UHGV virus genome: UHGV-0075871
Reading direction: 5' to 3' (one strand)
DNA length: 37,149 nt
From: a virus
Of the stretch, positions 3,704-35,126 are shown one piece after another (within the stretch, counting starts at the first letter, position 1; each line of letters starts with the position of its first letter). Made by a program: the position numbers and the translations under genes. The notes under the pieces are model-generated. The model made no database searches. It saw only the letters and a program-made list of their open reading frames with translations, and was not told the origin of the DNA.

Positions 3704-4288
3704 TTATTGTTTGTTTTTTTCGTTCTGGTTGATGACAAATTCAATGTAACTTTCGATCTTTGCTTTCTCGGTTTCGGGTAACAATGCGTAGCGCGAGCGG
3801 TCATAGTTGATGGTCGCAGGGTCGTGCGGGTGAATCAGTAATTCATAGCCGTGACGCCCGAATGCGGATGCAACATTCTCCAGGGTGGAAATGGAAACGC
3901 TGACCTCATTGTTTAACAGGCGGCTGATTGTCACCTGGGCGACGCCGGATGCGCGGTGAAGTTTTCCCTGTGTTGAAAGGTCGCGGCTTTCGCTCATCCA
4001 GCGTTCCAGGTTGTGAGCCGCCAGCTGACCAATGTCGCTTGGGCCGACAGGCTGAAAACCTTCCTGAGAAAGCGAGCGATCGATATCAAGCCAGTTACGG
4101 GGTTTATTGGCGGCAGCTTCAATTTTTCGCGCAACCTGGTCGCCGATAACCTTCTTGCCAAGAGCCCAGCGGTTTACCAGATTTGCCTGAGTTCCAAGTT
4201 TTTCTGCCATCCGCGTCTGAACACCATTGAATTCACGGTCGATCAAGTCGTTGAGATTTTGCCTGCGGACGTCCTGGATACTTTTCAT
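3704..4288 (-). CDS. phage immunity repressor (CI-like, two HTH motifs, no S24 peptidase domain)
   Basis: 194 aa; two HTH-like segments (TRMAEKLGTQANLVNRWALG and VAQVTISRLLNNEVSVSIS); divergent from a Cro-like gene across an operator-rich spacer; no G-D-S-M / Ser-Lys autocleavage motif. Confidence 0.7.
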   Translation of the reverse strand: MKSIQDVRRQNLNDLIDREFNGVQTRMAEKLGTQANLVNRWALGKKVIGDQVARKIEAAANKPRNWLDIDRSLSQEGFQPVGPSDIGQLAAHNLERWMSESRDLSTQGKLHRASGVAQVTISRLLNNEVSVSISTLENVASAFGRHGYELLIHPHDPATINYDRSRYALLPETEKAKIESYIEFVINQNEKNKQ

Positions 4289-30303: not shown

Positions 30304-30843
30304 TTACCAAAACTTGTACCACGGGGATTTATCCTTCAATGGGCAATCCTTCCATCGTGTGGCCAACCATTCATATTCTTTAAAATATGTGTTTATGTTT
30401 TCTTTTTCTCTAATGGCTTGTATAAGAGGTAGCGCAATCTGATAGTTATTTACAACGGAGCTGTAAAATACTTCCTTAATCATGGTCTCATCATAAGTTT
30501 TCCGCTTCACGCTCACAGCCATGCGTTCGTAGAAACCTAGACAGTAAATTATTTCTCTCTTCTCTGTCTTTTCTTCATCCGTAAGATCAGCCTGCCCATT
30601 GCTTGGATACATATAAGAGCGGAATGATTTGTTCGACTCGTGAATGCGGCGCATAGTAGATAGGCCTTTCTTATAATCTACATCAAACCTGCTTTCACCA
30701 AGGAATACTGAAGTGTGTACTTTTCTCGCTGTATTTACATTATAAATAATAGTAGCGATAGCTATGAACAAGCCAAGCGAAACCGCGACTGCACTTACGA
30801 TTTGAGCCACAGCCATGGCAAATTGCATTTCTTCACTTAACAC
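30304..30843 (-). CDS. moron: single-pass membrane protein, function unknown
   Basis: 179 aa; N-terminal hydrophobic helix (MAVAQIVSAVAVSLGLFIAIATIIY) then a soluble Lys/Glu/Tyr-rich domain; lower GC than neighbours; opposite strand; own leader with a 10-codon ORF and hairpin. Confidence 0.65.
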   Translation of the reverse strand: MLSEEMQFAMAVAQIVSAVAVSLGLFIAIATIIYNVNTARKVHTSVFLGESRFDVDYKKGLSTMRRIHESNKSFRSYMYPSNGQADLTDEEKTEKREIIYCLGFYERMAVSVKRKTYDETMIKEVFYSSVVNNYQIALPLIQAIREKENINTYFKEYEWLATRWKDCPLKDKSPWYKFW

Positions 30844-30972: not shown

Positions 30973-30987
30973 TCACCCGTAAGGTAA
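30973..30987. promoter_or_regulatory. variant operator-like palindrome TCACC-N5-GGTAA
   Basis: TCACCCGTAAGGTAA upstream (minus-strand sense) of the leader ORF and moron. Confidence 0.35.
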
Positions 30988-31059: not shown

Positions 31060-31752
31060 TCAGAAGAACCCAGCCTTGTCGTTGATGTACTCCGCGTGCG
31101 TCTGGATATCACGCAGGCATTTGCTCACACCAACGATGTAGCAGAACATGGTGGTCAGCTCCGCCGCCGCGCCCGATACGTCGTGCCCGTCGTCCTGTAA
31201 CTGGTTCAGCAGATTCATCAGCAGTGAGTTCTCCGTCAGGCCGAGAACACCAGACGGAGAATGAATCAGGCTACGGTAGCCGGGCTTCAGTGGAGCACTG
31301 TAGGTTTTGTTCTCTATCTTCATCGCCTGCATTACTGCTGACGCCGTGGCGTTGGCTACCTGGTCGGCAACCATCTTTATGCGTTCTTCCTGCGGTAGCG
31401 AGTTTTTAATGTAACTTCCGGTGCGGCGGATCTGAGGAAGAACCTCGCCTGTAACCCATTCAAGAAATCTGAATGCTCTCGTTCCCTCAGTCATTGCCTC
31501 TTTGCAACGCAGAATAAGGATGTAGAGACCTGATTCTGAAACGATGGATAGTTCTTGTATTCCACCAGGGGTCTGTATTGAATACAGCCCCTTTTTGTTC
31601 CAGCCTTTTTTATCAAGTTTTCTCGCTTGTGTAACATCAATATTCAAAGCATTGCACACATCTTTGGTGACAAACCAAGGTTCTCCGTCAATCATGAACA
31701 TACGGATCTGGCAGGATGACTCAAAGGAAAAGATGGAAGGTTTGGTATTCAT
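31060..31752 (-). CDS. antirepressor-type protein with Bro-N-like N-terminal domain
   Basis: ORF track 31060..31797; start moved to MNTKPSIFSF with AAGGTG RBS; N-terminal FESSCQIRMFMIDGEPWFVTKDVCNALNI resembles Bro-N; C-terminal ~85 aa paralogous to the small gene at 32067..32324. Confidence 0.7.
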   Translation of the reverse strand: MNTKPSIFSFESSCQIRMFMIDGEPWFVTKDVCNALNIDVTQARKLDKKGWNKKGLYSIQTPGGIQELSIVSESGLYILILRCKEAMTEGTRAFRFLEWVTGEVLPQIRRTGSYIKNSLPQEERIKMVADQVANATASAVMQAMKIENKTYSAPLKPGYRSLIHSPSGVLGLTENSLLMNLLNQLQDDGHDVSGAAAELTTMFCYIVGVSKCLRDIQTHAEYINDKAGFF

Positions 31753-31778
31753 GGCGATCACCTTTGTAGTTAGGTTAA

Positions 31779-31811
31779 TCACCACCGCTGAGACCAATCA
31801 GATGGTGGTGA
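31779..31811 (-). other. stem-loop in the 5' leader of the Bro-N gene with hexaloop GACCAA (plus-strand sense)
   Basis: TCACCACCGCTGA-GACCAA-TCAGATGGTGGTGA; imperfect 12-bp stem; same loop sequence as the hairpin at 31949..31964. Confidence 0.4.
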
Positions 31812-31904
31812 ACTGTGCAGAGTTGGTCTTACCGGCTACAAAGGAACCCGGCGCACCTTTCGGTGCCCCCACACAGCCCACCATAGAATAGGTGCGCTTT
31901 ACAC

Positions 31905-31994
31905 ATAAAAAAAACCGCTTATGCGGCATATGTGCCTCTGTAGTAATCCGGGAGACCAATCCCGGCACTGGATTTTGCCAGTGCCCGATTACTA
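31905..31994 (-). ncRNA. candidate structured RNA element / small RNA between the two antirepressor genes
   Basis: Outer 8-bp stem TAGTAATC/GATTACTA (31941..31948 with 31987..31994) enclosing hairpins CGGGA-GACCAA-TCCCG and GCACTGG-ATTTTG-CCAGTGC; in minus-strand sense followed by short hairpin CCGC-ATAA-GCGG and T8 (31907..31926); operator palindrome just upstream. Confidence 0.25.
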
Positions 31995-32020
31995 TGGCAC
32001 AAGAGGAGTGCGATGTAAAT

Positions 32021-32035
32021 TTACCTCAAAGGTAA
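32021..32035. promoter_or_regulatory. TTACC-N5-GGTAA operator-like palindrome
   Basis: TTACCTCAAAGGTAA between the two antirepressor-type genes. Confidence 0.5.
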
Positions 32036-32066
32036 ATATAAGCACTCCACTTGGTAATTGCAAACC

Positions 32067-32324
32067 TTATCTGGTTTGTTTTCGTAATTGTTCGGCACAA
32101 TAGTCGAGATGTGTTTGCAGATCCCGCATAGACATCTGTGAGCTGGTGACGTAGTTAATCAGTGCAGTCAGTTCGGCAAGTGGGCCATCGACATTAAATC
32201 CATCCTTATCGAGATCCCGGAGTAATTTCATCAAGTGCGATCCCTCCACCAGTGACCTGACGCCTCCCGGCGTGTGAATCCTTTCGGTAAATCCGTCTTC
32301 CAGTGGATAGTGATACCGCTGCAT
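32067..32324 (-). CDS. small antirepressor-domain protein (paralogue of the Bro-N protein C-terminus), LexA-controlled
   Basis: ORF track 32067..32342 (TTG start); likely start at the ATG (MQRYHYP...) with GGAGAAG RBS; IHTPGGVRSLVEGSHLMKLLRDLDKDGFNVDGPLAELT...MRDLQTHLDY parallels the C-terminal region of the 31060..31752 product; LexA box about 20 nt upstream. Confidence 0.6.
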   Translation of the reverse strand: MQRYHYPLEDGFTERIHTPGGVRSLVEGSHLMKLLRDLDKDGFNVDGPLAELTALINYVTSSQMSMRDLQTHLDYCAEQLRKQTR

Positions 32325-32345
32325 CTTATCTTCTCCATGCAATAA

Positions 32346-32400: not shown

Positions 32401-32415
32401 TTACCATAAAGGTAA
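32401..32415. promoter_or_regulatory. TTACC-N5-GGTAA operator-like palindrome
   Basis: TTACCATAAAGGTAA in the divergent spacer between the small antirepressor gene and the tailspike gene. Confidence 0.5.
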
Positions 32416-32519: not shown

Positions 32520-35126
32520 ATGACGGTCTCAACCGAAGTTGACCACAACGAATACACCGGTAACGGCGTTACGACATCGTTTCCGTATGCCTTTAGGGTT
32601 TTCAATAAATCTGATTTGATTGTGCAGGTTGTTGATATTCATGAAAATATCACCGTACTGACTCTTGATACTGATTATATAGTTACCGGGGCCGGAGGAT
32701 ACAATGGTGGAAATGTAATATTGTCGAAGGCGTTGGCCAATGGCTATAAGATTTCTATATCACGAGAGCTACCGGTTACACAGGAAACTGATCTGCGCAA
32801 TCAGGGTAAGTTCTTTGCGGAAGTGCATGAGGATGCTTTTGATAAGCTAACGATGCTGATCCAGTTAGTCAAAAGCATGGCTCGGCTGGCTCTTCGTAAA
32901 CCATCATTTAGTGCCACTTACTACGATGCACTCGGCAATCGTATTCGTAACCTTGATGATCCATTATTTCCTCAGGACGCTTCCACGAAGAAATATACAG
33001 ACTCATCTATCAAAGGAGTTATTAACAGCAACATATCTAAAACACTCCGCTTCCCTGAGATAGTAAGCGAAATGGCATCAGCATCTTCTAGGGCAAACTC
33101 AATTCAGGGGTATGACAGTTTAGGACGTCCTGTTCCTATTTTTTCAATTACAGATACTGCTGATTTATGCCTTAAGCTAGCAAGTGTCAACGGATCATCA
33201 TACGTTGGTACCAGATTTGGTGATACACTTGAACAGACGCTAAATAGTACTCAGTTCATTAATTCCTGCAGTTTAGTCACATCTAAAACACTTGAGAGAT
33301 TATCAAGGCCTAACTCAAAAATAGTGTTAGTTGGTGACAGCTTAAGTGCCCCATATAATATAAGCACAGTGGATCGATCAAGCATTTTTGCCGCTCATCT
33401 TAAGAGAGTTTTGCAAGAGAAATTCCCAAGTTCTACTTTATTTAACAGAGCAATTGGTGGAATGAGGTACTATGACCTTGGAAAAGATACACCAGCAATT
33501 ACTTCTTATAACTCACAGTACCCATGGTATTCAGACACGAACAGACGCTGGATTGATTACATTCGTGATATTAACCCTGATGTTGTTATTATTGCTTTTG
33601 GCATGAATGACGGAGATGGTTGGGATGTTGGTAACTTCCCGCAGAAAACTTTTTTTAAATTGATGGCTGAACTGAATGATATTACTTCAATGCCTGAAAT
33701 TGTTTTTTGTACAAATATCCTCCCATCAAGTACCACAAGTGACTCTGAATTTAGCAGTTTAGAAGCTCAGAATGGACGAAACGCAATGGCAGGATGGACT
33801 CGTTCATATGCGCAGTATGTTGGCGCTGGGCTTATTGATTTTAATCGTTACTTTAATGCAGTACGTGATGGGGTTGATGTGGTTTCTGGTAATTATGTGA
33901 GGGCAACTATTTCAAAAGATGTTACATTGCCTTATGAATATGAAGATTTATCATATTCTTACTCCGTAAGGATTCAATTTGTAGATATTGAAATCCTTAG
34001 TTCTGGGATTCAATTCCAATTGTCTTCATACCATAATAATTTCATTAACTTGAAATATACAGGCTCTGCCTTTGAAACCACACACTATACTGCATCAACA
34101 GGGACTGTAGGTGTTTTTATGCGCAATATTGTTAAATTATCTGCTCCACTTGGTTTGTTTTCAGTTGAATTTAAACTTATTGGAAACTTCGTTGAGATAA
34201 CACTTAACGATAACGAAATACTATTCAGTAGTAATATTGTAAGGTTTGGTGGTTTATTTTATCCTCGCATCGGTGGTTCAGGGAACTGCAAAATTGATAT
34301 GCAGCCGATGATTCCTGTTAAGCTTAAAAAGTCAATGACTAACGAAGATGTTTATTCGCCTGGTAGTGGTAATAATAAGAATCACCCAACAGCTTATGCA
34401 AGCTCTAGAATATATCCACCGGTTCTTGATGGATGCTTTAATAGCATTTTCTTTAAAGAGATGAAAACTGATGGCGTTTACCTTGATTTTATCACAGGAC
34501 AATATGAAATAGTTAATAGCTATTCTCCCAACTTATCTAAAAAAGGAAACGTATCTGATATTCTTTCCTTTGTTTCAGGTGACCTTATTTATTCCTATTC
34601 ATCAGATATTTTAGAAGGGGCTGTTTTTGGTTCCGCAAATAAATGCTATATAGACAGTAATAAGTTTTTGCTAGCTAATCAGAAATTAAGAGGGATTACT
34701 GTTATTGTTGAGGGGAAACAATATGCAGGTGGAGAATTGGCGTATTATGTCACACTTGGTGAGGGGTTAACTGGTAACCGTCTGCATATGACAATAACCG
34801 ATAATAATATTCCACGCTGTACTGCAGTGATGAATGGAGTATCTTCTGATCTTATCGGTTCAAATTCGTTTCAGGTAAACCCATCTATTTTTCACAAACA
34901 TACTAGTTCAATCGATGTCAATAATGGAATTCATTCTATGGCATACGATAATCACATGGCCTCTGGTAACATTGCAGAAACTGAAATATCTGAACTTACT
35001 CAGGATATTGTATCTAAAATAAAACTTGGTTATGCAAGTGAAACGACTTCTGGAGTTGATGTTGTTATTGCCAGAGTGCAGGTTATTTTTGATGGATTAA
35101 CATCATCTGGAGTTTGCAGGAAATAA
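32520..35126 (+). CDS. tailspike / tail fibre protein with central SGNH (GDSL)-like hydrolase domain
   Basis: 868 aa; conserved-looking N-terminal particle-binding region; KIVLVGDSLSAPYN (GDS block) and IIAFGMNDG (G-x-N-D block) about 80 aa apart; AT-rich distal two-thirds typical of exchanged receptor-binding modules; no clear D-x-x-H block seen. Confidence 0.75.
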   Translation: MTVSTEVDHNEYTGNGVTTSFPYAFRVFNKSDLIVQVVDIHENITVLTLDTDYIVTGAGGYNGGNVILSKALANGYKISISRELPVTQETDLRNQGKFFAEVHEDAFDKLTMLIQLVKSMARLALRKPSFSATYYDALGNRIRNLDDPLFPQDASTKKYTDSSIKGVINSNISKTLRFPEIVSEMASASSRANSIQGYDSLGRPVPIFSITDTADLCLKLASVNGSSYVGTRFGDTLEQTLNSTQFINSCSLVTSKTLERLSRPNSKIVLVGDSLSAPYNISTVDRSSIFAAHLKRVLQEKFPSSTLFNRAIGGMRYYDLGKDTPAITSYNSQYPWYSDTNRRWIDYIRDINPDVVIIAFGMNDGDGWDVGNFPQKTFFKLMAELNDITSMPEIVFCTNILPSSTTSDSEFSSLEAQNGRNAMAGWTRSYAQYVGAGLIDFNRYFNAVRDGVDVVSGNYVRATISKDVTLPYEYEDLSYSYSVRIQFVDIEILSSGIQFQLSSYHNNFINLKYTGSAFETTHYTASTGTVGVFMRNIVKLSAPLGLFSVEFKLIGNFVEITLNDNEILFSSNIVRFGGLFYPRIGGSGNCKIDMQPMIPVKLKKSMTNEDVYSPGSGNNKNHPTAYASSRIYPPVLDGCFNSIFFKEMKTDGVYLDFITGQYEIVNSYSPNLSKKGNVSDILSFVSGDLIYSYSSDILEGAVFGSANKCYIDSNKFLLANQKLRGITVIVEGKQYAGGELAYYVTLGEGLTGNRLHMTITDNNIPRCTAVMNGVSSDLIGSNSFQVNPSIFHKHTSSIDVNNGIHSMAYDNHMASGNIAETEISELTQDIVSKIKLGYASETTSGVDVVIARVQVIFDGLTSSGVCRK

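What the first reader, a model, noticed from the sequence alone, without database searches (positions are those of the whole stretch)
31779..31994. Structured RNA element with two hairpins sharing the hexaloop GACCAA in the antirepressor leader
Between the two antirepressor genes (transcribed on the minus strand) lies a nested structure: outer stem TAGTAATC/GATTACTA enclosing hairpins CGGGA-GACCAA-TCCCG (31949..31964) and GCACTGG-ATTTTG-CCAGTGC (31965..31984), followed by a short hairpin plus T8 (31907..31926). A second, longer hairpin with the identical loop (TCACCACCGCTGA-GACCAA-TCAGATGGTGGTGA, 31779..31811) sits about 27 nt upstream of the Bro-N gene start. Identical loops on different stems suggest sites for one RNA-binding factor (nut/boxB-like) or kissing-loop partners of a small RNA, by analogy with the P22 sar antisense RNA controlling ant. 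An operator palindrome (32021..32035) lies just upstream, so a short regulated transcript of about 100 nt is plausible.
Basis: seen in the sequence. Interest (0 to 1): 0.55.

Follow-up and report, generated by a model that had tools for sequence, protein, structure and literature searches.

The report
P1-type C4 antisense RNA antirepressor switch
The two hairpins with the same loop are the known docking sites of a phage antisense RNA (C4), encoded between them, that keeps the prophage's antirepressor gene silent; this is an ordinary, well-conserved member of a system first described in phages P1 and P7.

Summary
The sequence features are at the stated coordinates. On the transcribed minus strand the shared loop reads UUGGUC, not GACCAA.

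Rfam places the region in two curated families above their gathering scores:
- isrK (31984..31908, 74.7 bits).

The two identical loops are the a1 and a2 target sites of C4. C4 carries the complementary AGACCAA (a') in a single-stranded junction. Its second loop, CCUUUGUAG (b'), is complementary to two further sites: b1 (CUACAGAGG) and b2 (CUACAAAGG). Site b2 covers the Shine-Dalgarno sequence of the Bro-N antirepressor gene.

In 91 related cassettes from viral contigs, a'/b' and all four target sites co-vary. Both target hairpins keep their pairing through compensatory changes.

Its 5' arm lies on an invariant -10 promoter element, upstream of the likely transcript start.

The palindrome is one of 14 dispersed operator-like sites in the prophage.

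Verdict: a real, functional-looking riboregulator, but an already known kind. It matches the P1/P7 immI c4-ant system and Gifsy-1 IsrK, and the same C4 + IsrK + BRO-N arrangement has been reported in APSE phages. The "small-RNA partner" idea is right. The boxB and sar analogies are not. Interest is low.

The parts
32019..32037 (.). Operator-like palindrome ATTTACC-N5-GGTAAAT (core TTACC-N5-GGTAA at 32021-32035). It sits between two promoter-like sites.
   Evidence: Read from the sequence. The core motif has 14 copies with at most 1 mismatch in the window, against 0.57 expected. The copies are nearly all intergenic. Four lie on either side of an HTH repressor-like gene at 3704..4288.
32035..32063 (-). 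Distal promoter-like site: TTGCAA, 17-nt spacer, TATATT. Its -10 element abuts the operator.
   Evidence: Consensus scan only. Positionally analogous to P2c4/P51a of P1. Weak evidence.
31991..32019 (-). Proximal promoter: -35 TTTACA (32019..32014) and extended -10 TGcCATAGT (hexamer 31996..31991). Predicted transcript start is near 31984.
   Evidence: Found by the scan. In 92 relatives the A and T of the -10 hexamer are invariant at a fixed distance from hairpin 1. A TTGAC block is conserved 16-18 nt upstream. The geometry is the same as the annotated P1c4 promoter of P1.
31908..31984 (-). IsrK-like short RNA, equivalent to the a1/b1 leader element. It has hairpin 1, the a1 hairpin, the b1 site and a terminator.
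   Evidence: Rfam isrK RF01394, 74.7 bits against a gathering score of 50, covering model positions 1-77. It overlaps a c4-a1b1 RF03163 match of 39.9 bits, below that family's gathering score of 46.7.
31965..31984 (-). Hairpin 1: GCACUGG-CAAAAU-CCAGUGC. Its function is unknown.
   Evidence: 97.8% of cells are paired and 6 of 7 pairs show changes on both sides in 92 relatives.
31949..31964 (-). a1 hairpin: CGGGA-UUGGUC-UCCCG. The a1 site UUGGUCU is at 31959..31953.
   Evidence: 96.7% paired. The 7-nt site is complementary to C4 a'. It corresponds to the a1 site annotated in P1.
31935..31943 (-). b1 site CUACAGAGG.
   Evidence: Nine contiguous pairs (one G-U) with the C4 b' loop. b1 tracks b' across 52 distinct b' loops.
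31907..31927 (-). Intrinsic terminator: CCGC-AUAA-GCGG followed by U8. It ends the short RNA; read-through would give the long transcript.
   Evidence: Terminator scan. It forms the 3' end of the isrK model. A GC hairpin plus T-run sits at the same place in almost every related cassette listed; the few exceptions have a broken or absent T-run.
31801..31888 (-). C4 antisense RNA gene. By homology with the P1 annotation the mature RNA would be about 31882..31804.
   Evidence: Rfam C4 RF01695, 78.6 bits against a gathering score of 45, covering model positions 1-87. It scores 85.0 bits with my own model R1. The predicted fold has a basal stem, two hairpins and a free junction, z = -3.7.
31836..31844 (-). 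b' recognition loop CCUUUGUAG, in C4 hairpin 2.
   Evidence: Unpaired in the predicted fold. Complementary to b1 and b2.
31823..31829 (-). a' recognition sequence AGACCAA, in the single-stranded junction of C4.
   Evidence: Unpaired in the predicted fold. Complementary to both UUGGUCU loops.
31779..31811 (-). a2 hairpin: UCACCACCAUCUGA-UUGGUC-UCAGCGGUGGUGA. The a2 site is at 31797..31791. Its 5' arm is also the 3' strand of the C4 basal stem.
   Evidence: z = -4.0. The outer helix is 93% paired, with changes on both sides in 6 of 8 pairs across 69 relatives.
31758..31769 (-). b2 site CUACAAAGG (31769..31761), overlapping the Shine-Dalgarno sequence AAGGUGA (31764..31758).
   Evidence: Nine Watson-Crick pairs with b'. 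b2 lies 30-37 nt after the C4 match in most relatives, and a start codon follows about 10-20 nt later.
31060..31752 (-). Regulated gene: Bro-N antirepressor (230 aa from the ATG at 31752).
   Evidence: Pfam Bro-N, E = 1.8e-13. PHROG 130 'anti-repressor Ant', E = 2e-50. The Bro-N anti-repressor ORF4 at the matching position in phage vB_EcoP_ZX5 promotes lytic growth when overexpressed (PMC9782041; its cassette region is 85% identical to the window's).

Best explanation
This is the immunity (immI-type) riboregulatory cassette of a phiV10/epsilon15-like prophage. It belongs to the family first defined in phages P1 and P7.

Proposed sequence of events:
1. A promoter next to a repressor operator starts transcription at about 31984.
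2. Most transcripts stop at the terminator (31927..31907). This gives a roughly 77-nt IsrK-like RNA that carries target sites a1 and b1.
3. Read-through transcripts carry the C4 precursor, which is trimmed to an RNA of about 79 nt. In P1 the 5' cut is made by RNase P.
4. C4 uses two exposed sequences to bind the leader of the antirepressor mRNA. Its junction a' (AGACCAA) pairs with a2 (UUGGUCU), which is displayed in a hairpin loop. Its loop b' (CCUUUGUAG) pairs with b2 (CUACAAAGG), which overlaps the ribosome binding site.
5. This blocks translation of the Bro-N antirepressor, and probably causes premature termination as well. The prophage repressor therefore stays active.
6. The upstream a1/b1 copy pairs with the same C4 sequences, both in cis and as the free short RNA. 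It therefore competes with the mRNA for C4 and sets the threshold.

What is shown here: family membership, the structures, the complementarity, and their co-variation across relatives.

What is inferred from P1/P7 and Gifsy-1: RNA processing, translational repression, and the direction of the a1/b1 effect.
For: Family membership:
- Rfam matches above the gathering score to C4 and isrK, both full length.
- The same pair of families occurs side by side in 12 of the 13 related loci scanned; in L052 the contig ends before C4. P1 has C4 plus c4-a1b1.

Correspondence with P1:
- The P1 record annotates operator, two promoters, a1, b1, c4, a2, b2 and then the regulated genes, in the same order and spacing as here.

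Complementarity:
- 7 nt for a'/a1 and a'/a2.
- 9 nt for b'/b1 and b'/b2.
- Local duplex energies are -9.2 and about -13 kcal/mol.

Co-variation between the RNA and its targets:
- 91 unique cassettes give 52 different b' loops and 10 a' hexamers, and the matching complement is present at both target positions.
- At least 9 contiguous pairs occur in 62% of cognate b'/b2 comparisons, against 4.8% of non-cognate ones.

Structure conservation:
- Hairpin 1: 97.8% paired.
- a1 hairpin: 96.7% paired.
- a2 hairpin: 93% paired, with compensatory changes.

Promoter:
- Invariant A and T of a -10 hexamer at a fixed distance from hairpin 1, plus a conserved TTGAC -35 block.

Regulated gene:
- It is an antirepressor by Pfam and PHROG.
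- The Bro-N anti-repressor ORF4 at the matching position in phage ZX5 promotes lytic growth when overexpressed.

Experimental support for a1:a' pairing in a homologue:
- In Gifsy-1 the published compensatory pairs G28:C162 and G31:C159 map exactly onto a1 and a'.
Against: - Nothing was measured for this prophage: no transcript ends, no processing, no repression.
- The cassette lacks the small icd gene through which P1 couples C4 binding to Rho-dependent termination. That step may therefore differ.
- The Gifsy-1 study found that the short IsrK RNA activates downstream translation. It also found that mutating a1 in cis raised expression, and it explained this by a conformational switch rather than by titration of free C4. 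The role I assign to a1/b1 is therefore uncertain.
- The c4-a1b1 Rfam model scores below its gathering threshold here (39.9 against 46.7).
Confidence: 0.85

Rival explanations
1. Gifsy-1-type activation switch.
- The long read-through transcript is locked in an inactive conformer by cis pairing of a1/b1 with a'/b'.
- The short IsrK-like RNA acts in trans to displace that pairing and turn on antirepressor translation.
- On this reading a free C4 RNA is not the main repressor.
- This overlaps with the best explanation and differs mainly in which pairing is decisive.
For: - It is the mechanism shown experimentally for the homologous Gifsy-1 locus (PMC4825925).
- The bases mutated in that study map onto a1, a' and the C4 basal stem.
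- The centroid fold of the window's 296-nt leader shows the same long-range a1:a' and b1:b' pairing, 8 kcal/mol above the minimum-energy fold.
Against: - The Gifsy-1 model needs orf45, whose stop overlaps the anrP start. Here the equivalent ORF has 28 codons and stops 45 nt before the ant ATG.
- Across the family the length of that ORF runs from 3 to more than 74 codons.
- a2 and b2 co-vary with a'/b' as tightly as a1 and b1 do. A purely cis a1/b1 lock does not predict this.
Confidence: 0.3
2. The identical loops are binding sites for one RNA-binding protein.
For: - Two hairpins on one transcript present the same hexaloop.
- Nothing else supports it.
Against: - The loop sequence differs between relatives (UUGGUC, UUGGCG, UUGGAA, UUGACA and others), always matched by the complementary change in the C4 junction.
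- There is no boxA-like element on the transcribed strand in 31740-32070.
- The region matches RNA families with a known RNA-RNA mechanism.
Confidence: 0.02
3. P22 sar-like control: a cis-antisense RNA transcribed from the + strand across the antirepressor start.
For: One weak + strand promoter-like site (GTGACA, 17-nt spacer, AATCAT, at 31667-31695) points towards the ant start.
Against: - The number of promoter-like hits equals the chance expectation (4 found, 3.2 expected).
- No + strand terminator follows that site.
- Conservation and co-variation are all explained by minus-strand RNAs.
Confidence: 0.02
4. The inverted repeats act as DNA, for example as protein-binding palindromes or a cruciform, and not as RNA.
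For: - The + strand folds as well as the minus strand, as any inverted repeat does.
- The nearby palindrome at 32021-32035 is indeed a DNA site.
Against: - G-U pairs are tolerated in the stems: 20 GU at one a1-hairpin pair and 16 GU at one hairpin-1 pair. These pair in RNA of this strand but not in the complementary strand.
- There are strand-specific covariance-model matches and a terminator U-run.
Confidence: 0.01

Closest known systems
immI operon of phages P1 and P7 (c4 antisense RNA, a1/b1 and a2/b2 targets, icd, ant). Citron & Schuster 1990 Cell 62:591, cited in PMC2864571 and PMC7313666. Rfam RF01695 and RF03163.
   Same: - Same order of parts: operator, promoter(s), two-hairpin a1/b1 element, terminator-like hairpin, C4, a2 hairpin, b2 at a ribosome binding site, then an antirepressor.
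- Same C4 fold.
- a' lies in the junction and b' in the second loop.
- Recognition sequences differ, but with matching changes in all four targets.
   Different: - There is no icd gene. b2 covers the ribosome binding site of the antirepressor itself. Both layouts occur in the family.
- The antirepressor is a Bro-N protein, unlike P1 Ant1/2.
- The host phage is an integrated epsilon15/phiV10-like podovirus, not a plasmid prophage.
- The recognition sequences are different (AGACCAA and CCUUUGUAG, against CUGUCAA and CACUAAC in P1).
IsrK sRNA locus of the Salmonella Gifsy-1 prophage (isrK-orf45-anrP; STnc1160). Hershko-Shalev et al. 2016, PMC4825925. Rfam RF01394.
   Same: - Full-length isrK match with promoter, two hairpins and terminator.
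- A C4-type RNA (STnc1160 in Gifsy-1) follows immediately, and then an antirepressor-like gene.
- The long transcript has the same two alternative folds.
   Different: - The Gifsy-1 orf45 overlaps the anrP start. Here the equivalent ORF stops 45 nt upstream.
- The downstream protein family differs (AnrP against Bro-N).
- The genomic position differs: next to the late-gene antiterminator Q in Gifsy-1, next to the tailspike gene here.
c4 and isrK sRNA pair next to a BRO-N gene in APSE phages of Hamiltonella (Rouil et al. 2020, PMC7313666).
   Same: - The same three parts sit together.
- The authors already noted that a'/b' match the non-coding region upstream of the BRO-N gene.
- APSE-1 was recovered here by DNA similarity and with model R1.
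   Different: - Different host and phage genus.
- The APSE paper also places an a'/b' match in the 3' end of the DNA polymerase gene and does not link isrK to c4; in APSE-1 my scan places both copies of each target within the cassette.
P4 immunity: CI RNA with seqA and seqC targets. Described in PMC4825925 as the structural homologue of IsrK and STnc1160.
   Same: - A processed RNA from an untranslated leader.
- It pairs with one copy of its target upstream and one downstream on the same transcript.
   Different: - In P4 the outcome is premature transcription termination of replication genes, not control of an antirepressor ribosome binding site.
- P4 was not compared by sequence here.
P22 immI: sar antisense RNA controlling ant
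   Same: An antirepressor gene is kept off by a small RNA that pairs at its ribosome binding site.
   Different: - sar is transcribed from the opposite strand of its target and is fully complementary to it.
- Here the regulator is encoded upstream on the same strand and pairs through two short patches.

Membership tests
C4 antisense RNA (Rfam RF01695; P1/P7 c4) | Covariance-model score at or above the curated gathering score, over the full model. | tested here: met
   78.6 bits against a gathering score of 45, model positions 1-87 of 87, at 31888..31801 on the minus strand.
C4 antisense RNA (Rfam RF01695; P1/P7 c4) | A long basal stem enclosing two hairpins, with a single-stranded junction (a') and an exposed second loop (b'). 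| tested here: met
   The minimum-energy and centroid folds agree, z = -3.7. The Rfam alignment shows no non-standard pairs.
C4 antisense RNA (Rfam RF01695; P1/P7 c4) | a' and b' are complementary to two target pairs on the same transcript: a1/b1 upstream and a2/b2 downstream. | tested here: met
   Matches of 7 + 9 nt at both places. The targets co-vary with a'/b' in 91 cassettes.
C4 antisense RNA (Rfam RF01695; P1/P7 c4) | b2 overlaps the ribosome binding site of the first downstream gene of an antirepressor operon. | tested here: met
   b2 at 31769..31761 overlaps AAGGUGA at 31764..31758, 5 nt before the AUG. The gene is a Bro-N / PHROG 130 anti-repressor.
C4 antisense RNA (Rfam RF01695; P1/P7 c4) | A small icd gene lies between c4 and ant and is translationally coupled to ant, as in P1. 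| tested here: not met
   No such ORF is present; the antirepressor follows directly. In the family, 62-81 aa Icd-like ORFs and direct 157-395 aa genes both occur. This feature belongs to P1 rather than to the RNA family.
C4 antisense RNA (Rfam RF01695; P1/P7 c4) | The RNA is released from a precursor by RNase P as a species of about 77 nt. | not testable with these tools
   Only the sequence context is conserved: UAU|GGUGGG at the 5' end and CCACC at the 3' end, as at the annotated P1 ends.
C4 antisense RNA (Rfam RF01695; P1/P7 c4) | The operon promoter is controlled by the phage's main repressor through an adjacent operator (Op51/Oc4 in P1). | tested here: inconclusive
   A palindrome sits between the two promoter-like sites. 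It belongs to a 14-copy dispersed motif, against 0.57 expected. Binding was not tested.
IsrK sRNA (Rfam RF01394) | Covariance-model score at or above the gathering score, over the full model, including the terminator. | tested here: met
   74.7 bits against a gathering score of 50, model positions 1-77 of 77, at 31984..31908.
IsrK sRNA (Rfam RF01394) | Its own promoter lies directly upstream, so that the RNA starts at hairpin 1. | tested here: met
   TTTACA, 17-nt spacer, TGcCATAGT. The -10 A and T are invariant in 92 relatives and the -35 TTGAC block is conserved. The transcript start itself is inferred, not measured.
IsrK sRNA (Rfam RF01394) | The read-through isoform encodes orf45, translationally coupled to the downstream gene (the Gifsy-1 model). 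| tested here: not met
   The equivalent ORF has 28 codons and stops 45 nt before the ant AUG. Its length is not conserved in the family.
IsrK sRNA (Rfam RF01394) | Hfq binding and trans-activation of the long isoform. | not testable with these tools
   Requires experiments.
c4-a1b1 motif (Rfam RF03163) | Covariance-model score at or above the gathering score. | tested here: not met
   39.9 bits against 46.7, E = 1.2e-08, at 31997..31945. The same two hairpins are captured above threshold by the overlapping isrK model. In relatives both models hit the same place.
Lambda-type nut site (boxA + boxB) | A boxA consensus upstream of a hairpin whose loop is fixed for an N-type protein. | tested here: not met
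   No boxA-like match on the minus strand in 31740-32070, and window-wide counts are at chance. The loop sequence varies with the C4 junction.
P22 sar-type cis-antisense RNA | A promoter and terminator on the strand opposite to ant, spanning its start. | tested here: not met
   Only one weak + strand promoter-like hit, at chance frequency, with no + strand terminator after it.

The most novel reading that the evidence does not exclude
The most novel reading is that three RNA parts in one 250-nt leader form a single circuit:
- a decoy (the IsrK-like a1/b1 RNA);
- an antisense repressor (C4);
- a target (a2/b2 at the antirepressor ribosome binding site).

The circuit would have a built-in folding switch, because the 3' strand of the C4 basal stem is also the 5' arm of the a2 hairpin. 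C4 maturation and display of a2 would then be mutually exclusive on any one transcript.

If true, IsrK (studied as an activator in Salmonella) and C4 (studied as a repressor in P1) would be two faces of one widespread device. The diversity of b' loops would be an immunity-specificity code across hundreds of prophages.

This reading is about the family as a whole. Nothing sets this window's copy apart.
Probability: 0.35. Interest if true: 0.4.

Novelty: already known. Interest (0 to 1): 0.15.

Why it matters
For this locus, the result explains how a phiV10/epsilon15-like E. coli prophage keeps its Bro-N antirepressor silent. It also supplies precise coordinates for two small RNA genes that genome annotations leave out:
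- The phiV10 record labels only a 'terminator'.
- The 12 best-matching RefSeq E. coli genomes list no RNA feature there.

The cassette is common:
- About 9% of complete E. coli genomes carry it (467 of 5426).
- More than 225 phage records carry it.
- More than 120 IMG/VR contigs carry it.

Annotating it would improve predictions of prophage immunity and induction.

It does not open a new question. The mechanism was worked out in P1/P7 and Gifsy-1. The one modestly useful point is that the two bodies of literature describe the same cassette. The published Gifsy-1 compensatory mutations fall exactly on the a1 and a' sites of the C4 system.

Tried and rejected
1. Outer stem (TAGTAATC/GATTACTA) and the flanking GUGCC/GGCAC helix as conserved RNA structure. 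Rejected.
- Only 49% and 44% of cells pair across 92 relatives.
- In close relatives that keep the 5' arm (TAGTGATC), the 3' side changes with the b' specificity and pairing is lost (L087, L102, L125).
- The 5' arm coincides with the -10 hexamer.

2. Whole-molecule RNA duplex and cofold energies as a test of the C4-target interaction. Uninformative.
- duplexfold ignores intramolecular structure, and some shuffled targets scored as well.
- cofold cannot represent loop-loop contacts.
- Only the local site duplexes were used.

3. RNAalifold on a MAFFT alignment of the a2 hairpin found only 4 pairs, because of gap placement. The helix was scored instead with a structure I supplied.

4. First palindrome search with a 6-nt spacer missed the site, because the true spacer is 5 nt.

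5. tRNA-like or ribozyme readings of the three-way junction. No tRNA is predicted there, and no other Rfam family scores better than E about 1.

6. The orf45-type coding reading of the C4 region. Rejected for this locus and as a family feature.

7. Literature search for a published description of the epsilon15/phiV10 operator motif or a c4-like RNA in these phages. Nothing was found in the searchable library. The original epsilon15 and phiV10 genome papers are not held there.
Full report
**1. The observation**

- TAGTAATC (31941-31948) and GATTACTA (31987-31994).
- CGGGA-GACCAA-TCCCG (31949-31964).
- GCACTGG-ATTTTG-CCAGTGC (31965-31984).
- A8 plus CCGC-TTAT-GCGG (31907-31926).
- The long hairpin 31779-31811 with the same GACCAA loop.
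- The palindrome at 32021-32035.

The flanking genes are on the minus strand. The relevant RNA is therefore the reverse complement, and the shared loop reads UUGGUC. The minus-strand RNA folds much better than shuffled sequence:
- z = -6.0 for the 296-nt leader.
- z = -6.4 for the upstream element.
- z = -4.0 for the downstream hairpin.

**2. What it is**

A scan of the whole window against Rfam gave two hits in this intergenic region, both above the curators' gathering scores and both full length:
- isrK (RF01394) at 31984..31908, 74.7 bits against 50.
- C4 antisense RNA (RF01695) at 31888..31801, 78.6 bits against 45.

A permissive scan added c4-a1b1 (RF03163), the a1/b1 targets of C4, at 31997..31945. 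That hit scores 39.9 bits, below its threshold of 46.7.

The regulated gene (ATG at 31752) is a Bro-N antirepressor (Pfam E = 1.8e-13; PHROG 130 'anti-repressor Ant' E = 2e-50).

The prophage is of the phiV10/epsilon15 type (genus Uetakevirus):
- The cassette is 83% identical to that of phiV10, where the stretch is annotated only as 'terminator' plus a similarity note.
- It is 100% identical to several E. coli chromosomes.

**3. Anatomy by comparison with P1**

The P1 record annotates, in order: operator Oc4, promoters P2c4 and P1c4, a1, b1, c4, a2, b2, icd, ant. In P1:
- a1 and a2 are UUGACAG, matched by CUGUCAA in the C4 junction.
- b1 and b2 are GUUAGUG, matched by CACUAAC in the second C4 loop.

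The window has the same layout with different letters:

| Element | Sequence | Coordinates (minus strand) | Note |
|---|---|---|---|
| a' | AGACCAA | 31829..31823 | single-stranded junction of C4 |
| b' | CCUUUGUAG | 31844..31836 | loop of C4 hairpin 2 |
| a1 | UUGGUCU | 31959..31953 | hairpin loop |
| b1 | CUACAGAGG | 31943..31935 | |
| a2 | UUGGUCU | 31797..31791 | hairpin loop |
| b2 | CUACAAAGG | 31769..31761 | overlaps Shine-Dalgarno AAGGUGA, 5 nt before the AUG |

The two identical loops are therefore a1 and a2. They are identical because both must pair with the same 7 nt of C4.

**4. Related sequences**

- Rfam found isrK and C4 side by side in 12 of the 13 loci tested; in L052 the contig ends before C4. 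In P1 it found C4 with c4-a1b1.
- A covariance model built from 15 C4 sequences found 99 C4 copies in 100 sources. These gave 91 unique cassettes.
- The cassettes carry 52 different b' loops and 10 a' hexamers.
- In nearly all of them, the complement of a' is present both upstream and just after C4. The complement of b' is present both upstream and at the downstream ribosome binding site.
- Cognate b'/b2 comparisons reach 9 or more contiguous pairs in 62% of cases, against 4.8% for non-cognate ones.

This intermolecular co-variation is the strongest evidence that the pairing is the function.

**5. Which structures are conserved**

On an anchored alignment of 92 distinct upstream elements:

| Helix | Cells paired | Comment |
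|---|---|---|
| Hairpin 1 | 97.8% | changes on both sides in 6 of 7 pairs |
| a1 hairpin | 96.7% | |
| Flanking GUGCC/GGCAC helix | 44% | not conserved |

The same alignment shows two invariant columns, A and T, at positions 2 and 6 of a hexamer (CATAGT here, at 31996..31991). This hexamer lies 6-7 nt before hairpin 1. A conserved TTGAC block lies 16-18 nt further upstream.

This is a sigma-70 promoter with the same geometry as P1c4 of P1. It places the transcript start at about 31984, which is position 1 of the isrK model.

The 5' arm of the 'outer stem' is therefore promoter DNA. It could be part of an RNA only in transcripts that start further upstream.

The downstream a2 hairpin is conserved: 93% paired in its outer helix, with compensatory changes. 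Its 5' arm is the same nucleotides as the 3' strand of the C4 basal stem, so the two folds exclude each other on one molecule.

**6. The palindrome**

TTACC-N5-GGTAA occurs 14 times in the window with at most one mismatch, against 0.57 expected.
- The sites are almost all intergenic.
- Four sites lie on either side of an HTH repressor-like gene at 3704..4288.
- The copy at 32021-32035 lies between a distal promoter-like site and the proximal promoter, like Oc4 in P1.
- A further copy at 32401-32415 precedes the upstream 91-aa ORF.

That ORF is not a full antirepressor. It matches only the C-terminal 74 residues of the Bro-N protein (43% identity, E = 3e-20; PHROG 450).

**7. Mechanism**

I commit to the P1-type mechanism given under the best explanation:
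- C4, released from read-through transcripts, pairs through a' and b' with a2 and b2.
- This blocks the antirepressor ribosome binding site.

The a1/b1 copy competes for the same C4 sequences, both within the long transcript and as the terminated short RNA.

The second part is less certain. In Gifsy-1, Hershko-Shalev et al. showed that short IsrK activates translation of the long isrK-orf45-anrP transcript by shifting it between two conformers. Numbering Gifsy-1 from the isrK model start reproduces all six bases they mutated:
- G28 and G31 fall in a1.
- C159 and C162 fall in a'.
- G114 and C175 fall in the C4 basal stem.

So their helix b-I is the a1:a' pairing, and their structure B contains the folded C4. 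The window's leader shows the same two alternatives in its minimum-energy and centroid folds.

Their orf45 is the ORF that starts at the AUG inside the C4 basal stem. Its length is not conserved across the family. Here it has 28 codons and ends 45 nt before the ant AUG. That coupling step is therefore unlikely in this prophage.

There is also no icd gene. Both layouts, an Icd-like ORF first or the antirepressor directly, are common in the family.

**8. Comparison with what is known, and novelty**

The element passes the defining tests for the C4 and IsrK RNA families. It fails only features specific to single model phages (icd in P1, orf45 coupling in Gifsy-1).
- The combination of c4, isrK and a BRO-N gene has already been reported for APSE phages, including the match between a'/b' and the region upstream of the BRO-N gene (PMC7313666).
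- The Gifsy-1 paper already likened IsrK and STnc1160 to P4 seqA and CI.
- The Bro-N anti-repressor (ORF4) of phage vB_EcoP_ZX5, at the matching position in a phage whose cassette region is 85% identical, promotes the lytic cycle when overexpressed (PMC9782041). That paper does not mention the RNAs.

The finding is therefore a correct detection of a real riboregulator, but of an already known kind.

**9. Verdict**

- Confidence in the identification is about 0.95, and in the proposed mechanism about 0.8; the 0.85 given above for the best explanation lies between these.
- Interest is 0.15.

Noticed in passing
window 3570, 3632, 4344, 4392, 6675, 6737, 9786, 9804, 12827, 13441, 30973, 32021, 32401, 35426: A dispersed palindrome, TTACC-N5-GGTAA, has 14 copies with at most one mismatch against 0.57 expected. 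The copies are nearly all intergenic, and four lie on either side of an HTH repressor-like gene (3704..4288, minus strand). It looks like a genome-wide operator set, as P1 has for its C1 repressor.
   Followed up: partly
window 32067..32342 (minus strand): This 91-aa ORF is a stand-alone copy of the C-terminal domain of the Bro-N antirepressor (43% identical over 74 residues, E = 3e-20; PHROG 450, function unknown). It has its own operator-like site at 32401-32415.
   Followed up: partly
window 31811..31801 (shared by C4 and the a2 hairpin): The 3' strand of the C4 basal stem is also the 5' arm of the a2 hairpin, so the two folds exclude each other on an unprocessed transcript. The arrangement is conserved, with co-variation, in 69 relatives.
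   Followed up: partly
window 31965..31984 (minus strand); alignment A3: Hairpin 1 has a well-covarying stem. Its loop, GCAAAAUC, was fixed by my search pattern. It is nearly the same in P1 (GCAAAUUC) and in the Rfam isrK and c4-a1b1 consensus sequences. It is not complementary to C4, and its role is unknown.
   Followed up: no
L002:1597-1738 (Gifsy-1) and window 31884..31798: The published Gifsy-1 orf45 is the ORF that starts at the AUG inside the C4 basal stem. Across 91 cassettes the length of this ORF runs from 3 to more than 74 codons, which argues against a conserved peptide.
   Followed up: yes
L035, L044, L055, L059, L083: Several viral contigs carry two C4 cassettes with different a'/b' recognition sequences. 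An example is L035 at 9203-9289 and 10988-11075.
   Followed up: no
L025:5856-6047 (minus strand): There is a strong Rfam match to RT-15 RNA (RF03018, 173 bits) a few kb from a C4 cassette in an IMG/VR contig.
   Followed up: no
window 13043..13119 (minus strand): A tRNA-Arg (anticodon TCT) is encoded in the prophage, between two operator-like sites.
   Followed up: no
window 32520..35126 (plus strand): This 868-aa protein is tail-fibre/tailspike-like. By DNA similarity it lies at the position of the phiV10 tail fibre gene, which that record says resembles the epsilon15 tail fibre at its N-terminus. It carries a GDSL lipase/esterase domain at residues 268-447.
   Followed up: no
window 30304..30843 (minus strand): A DUF4760 gene (E = 8e-31) lies downstream of the antirepressor, preceded by an operator-like site at 30973-30987.
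   Followed up: no
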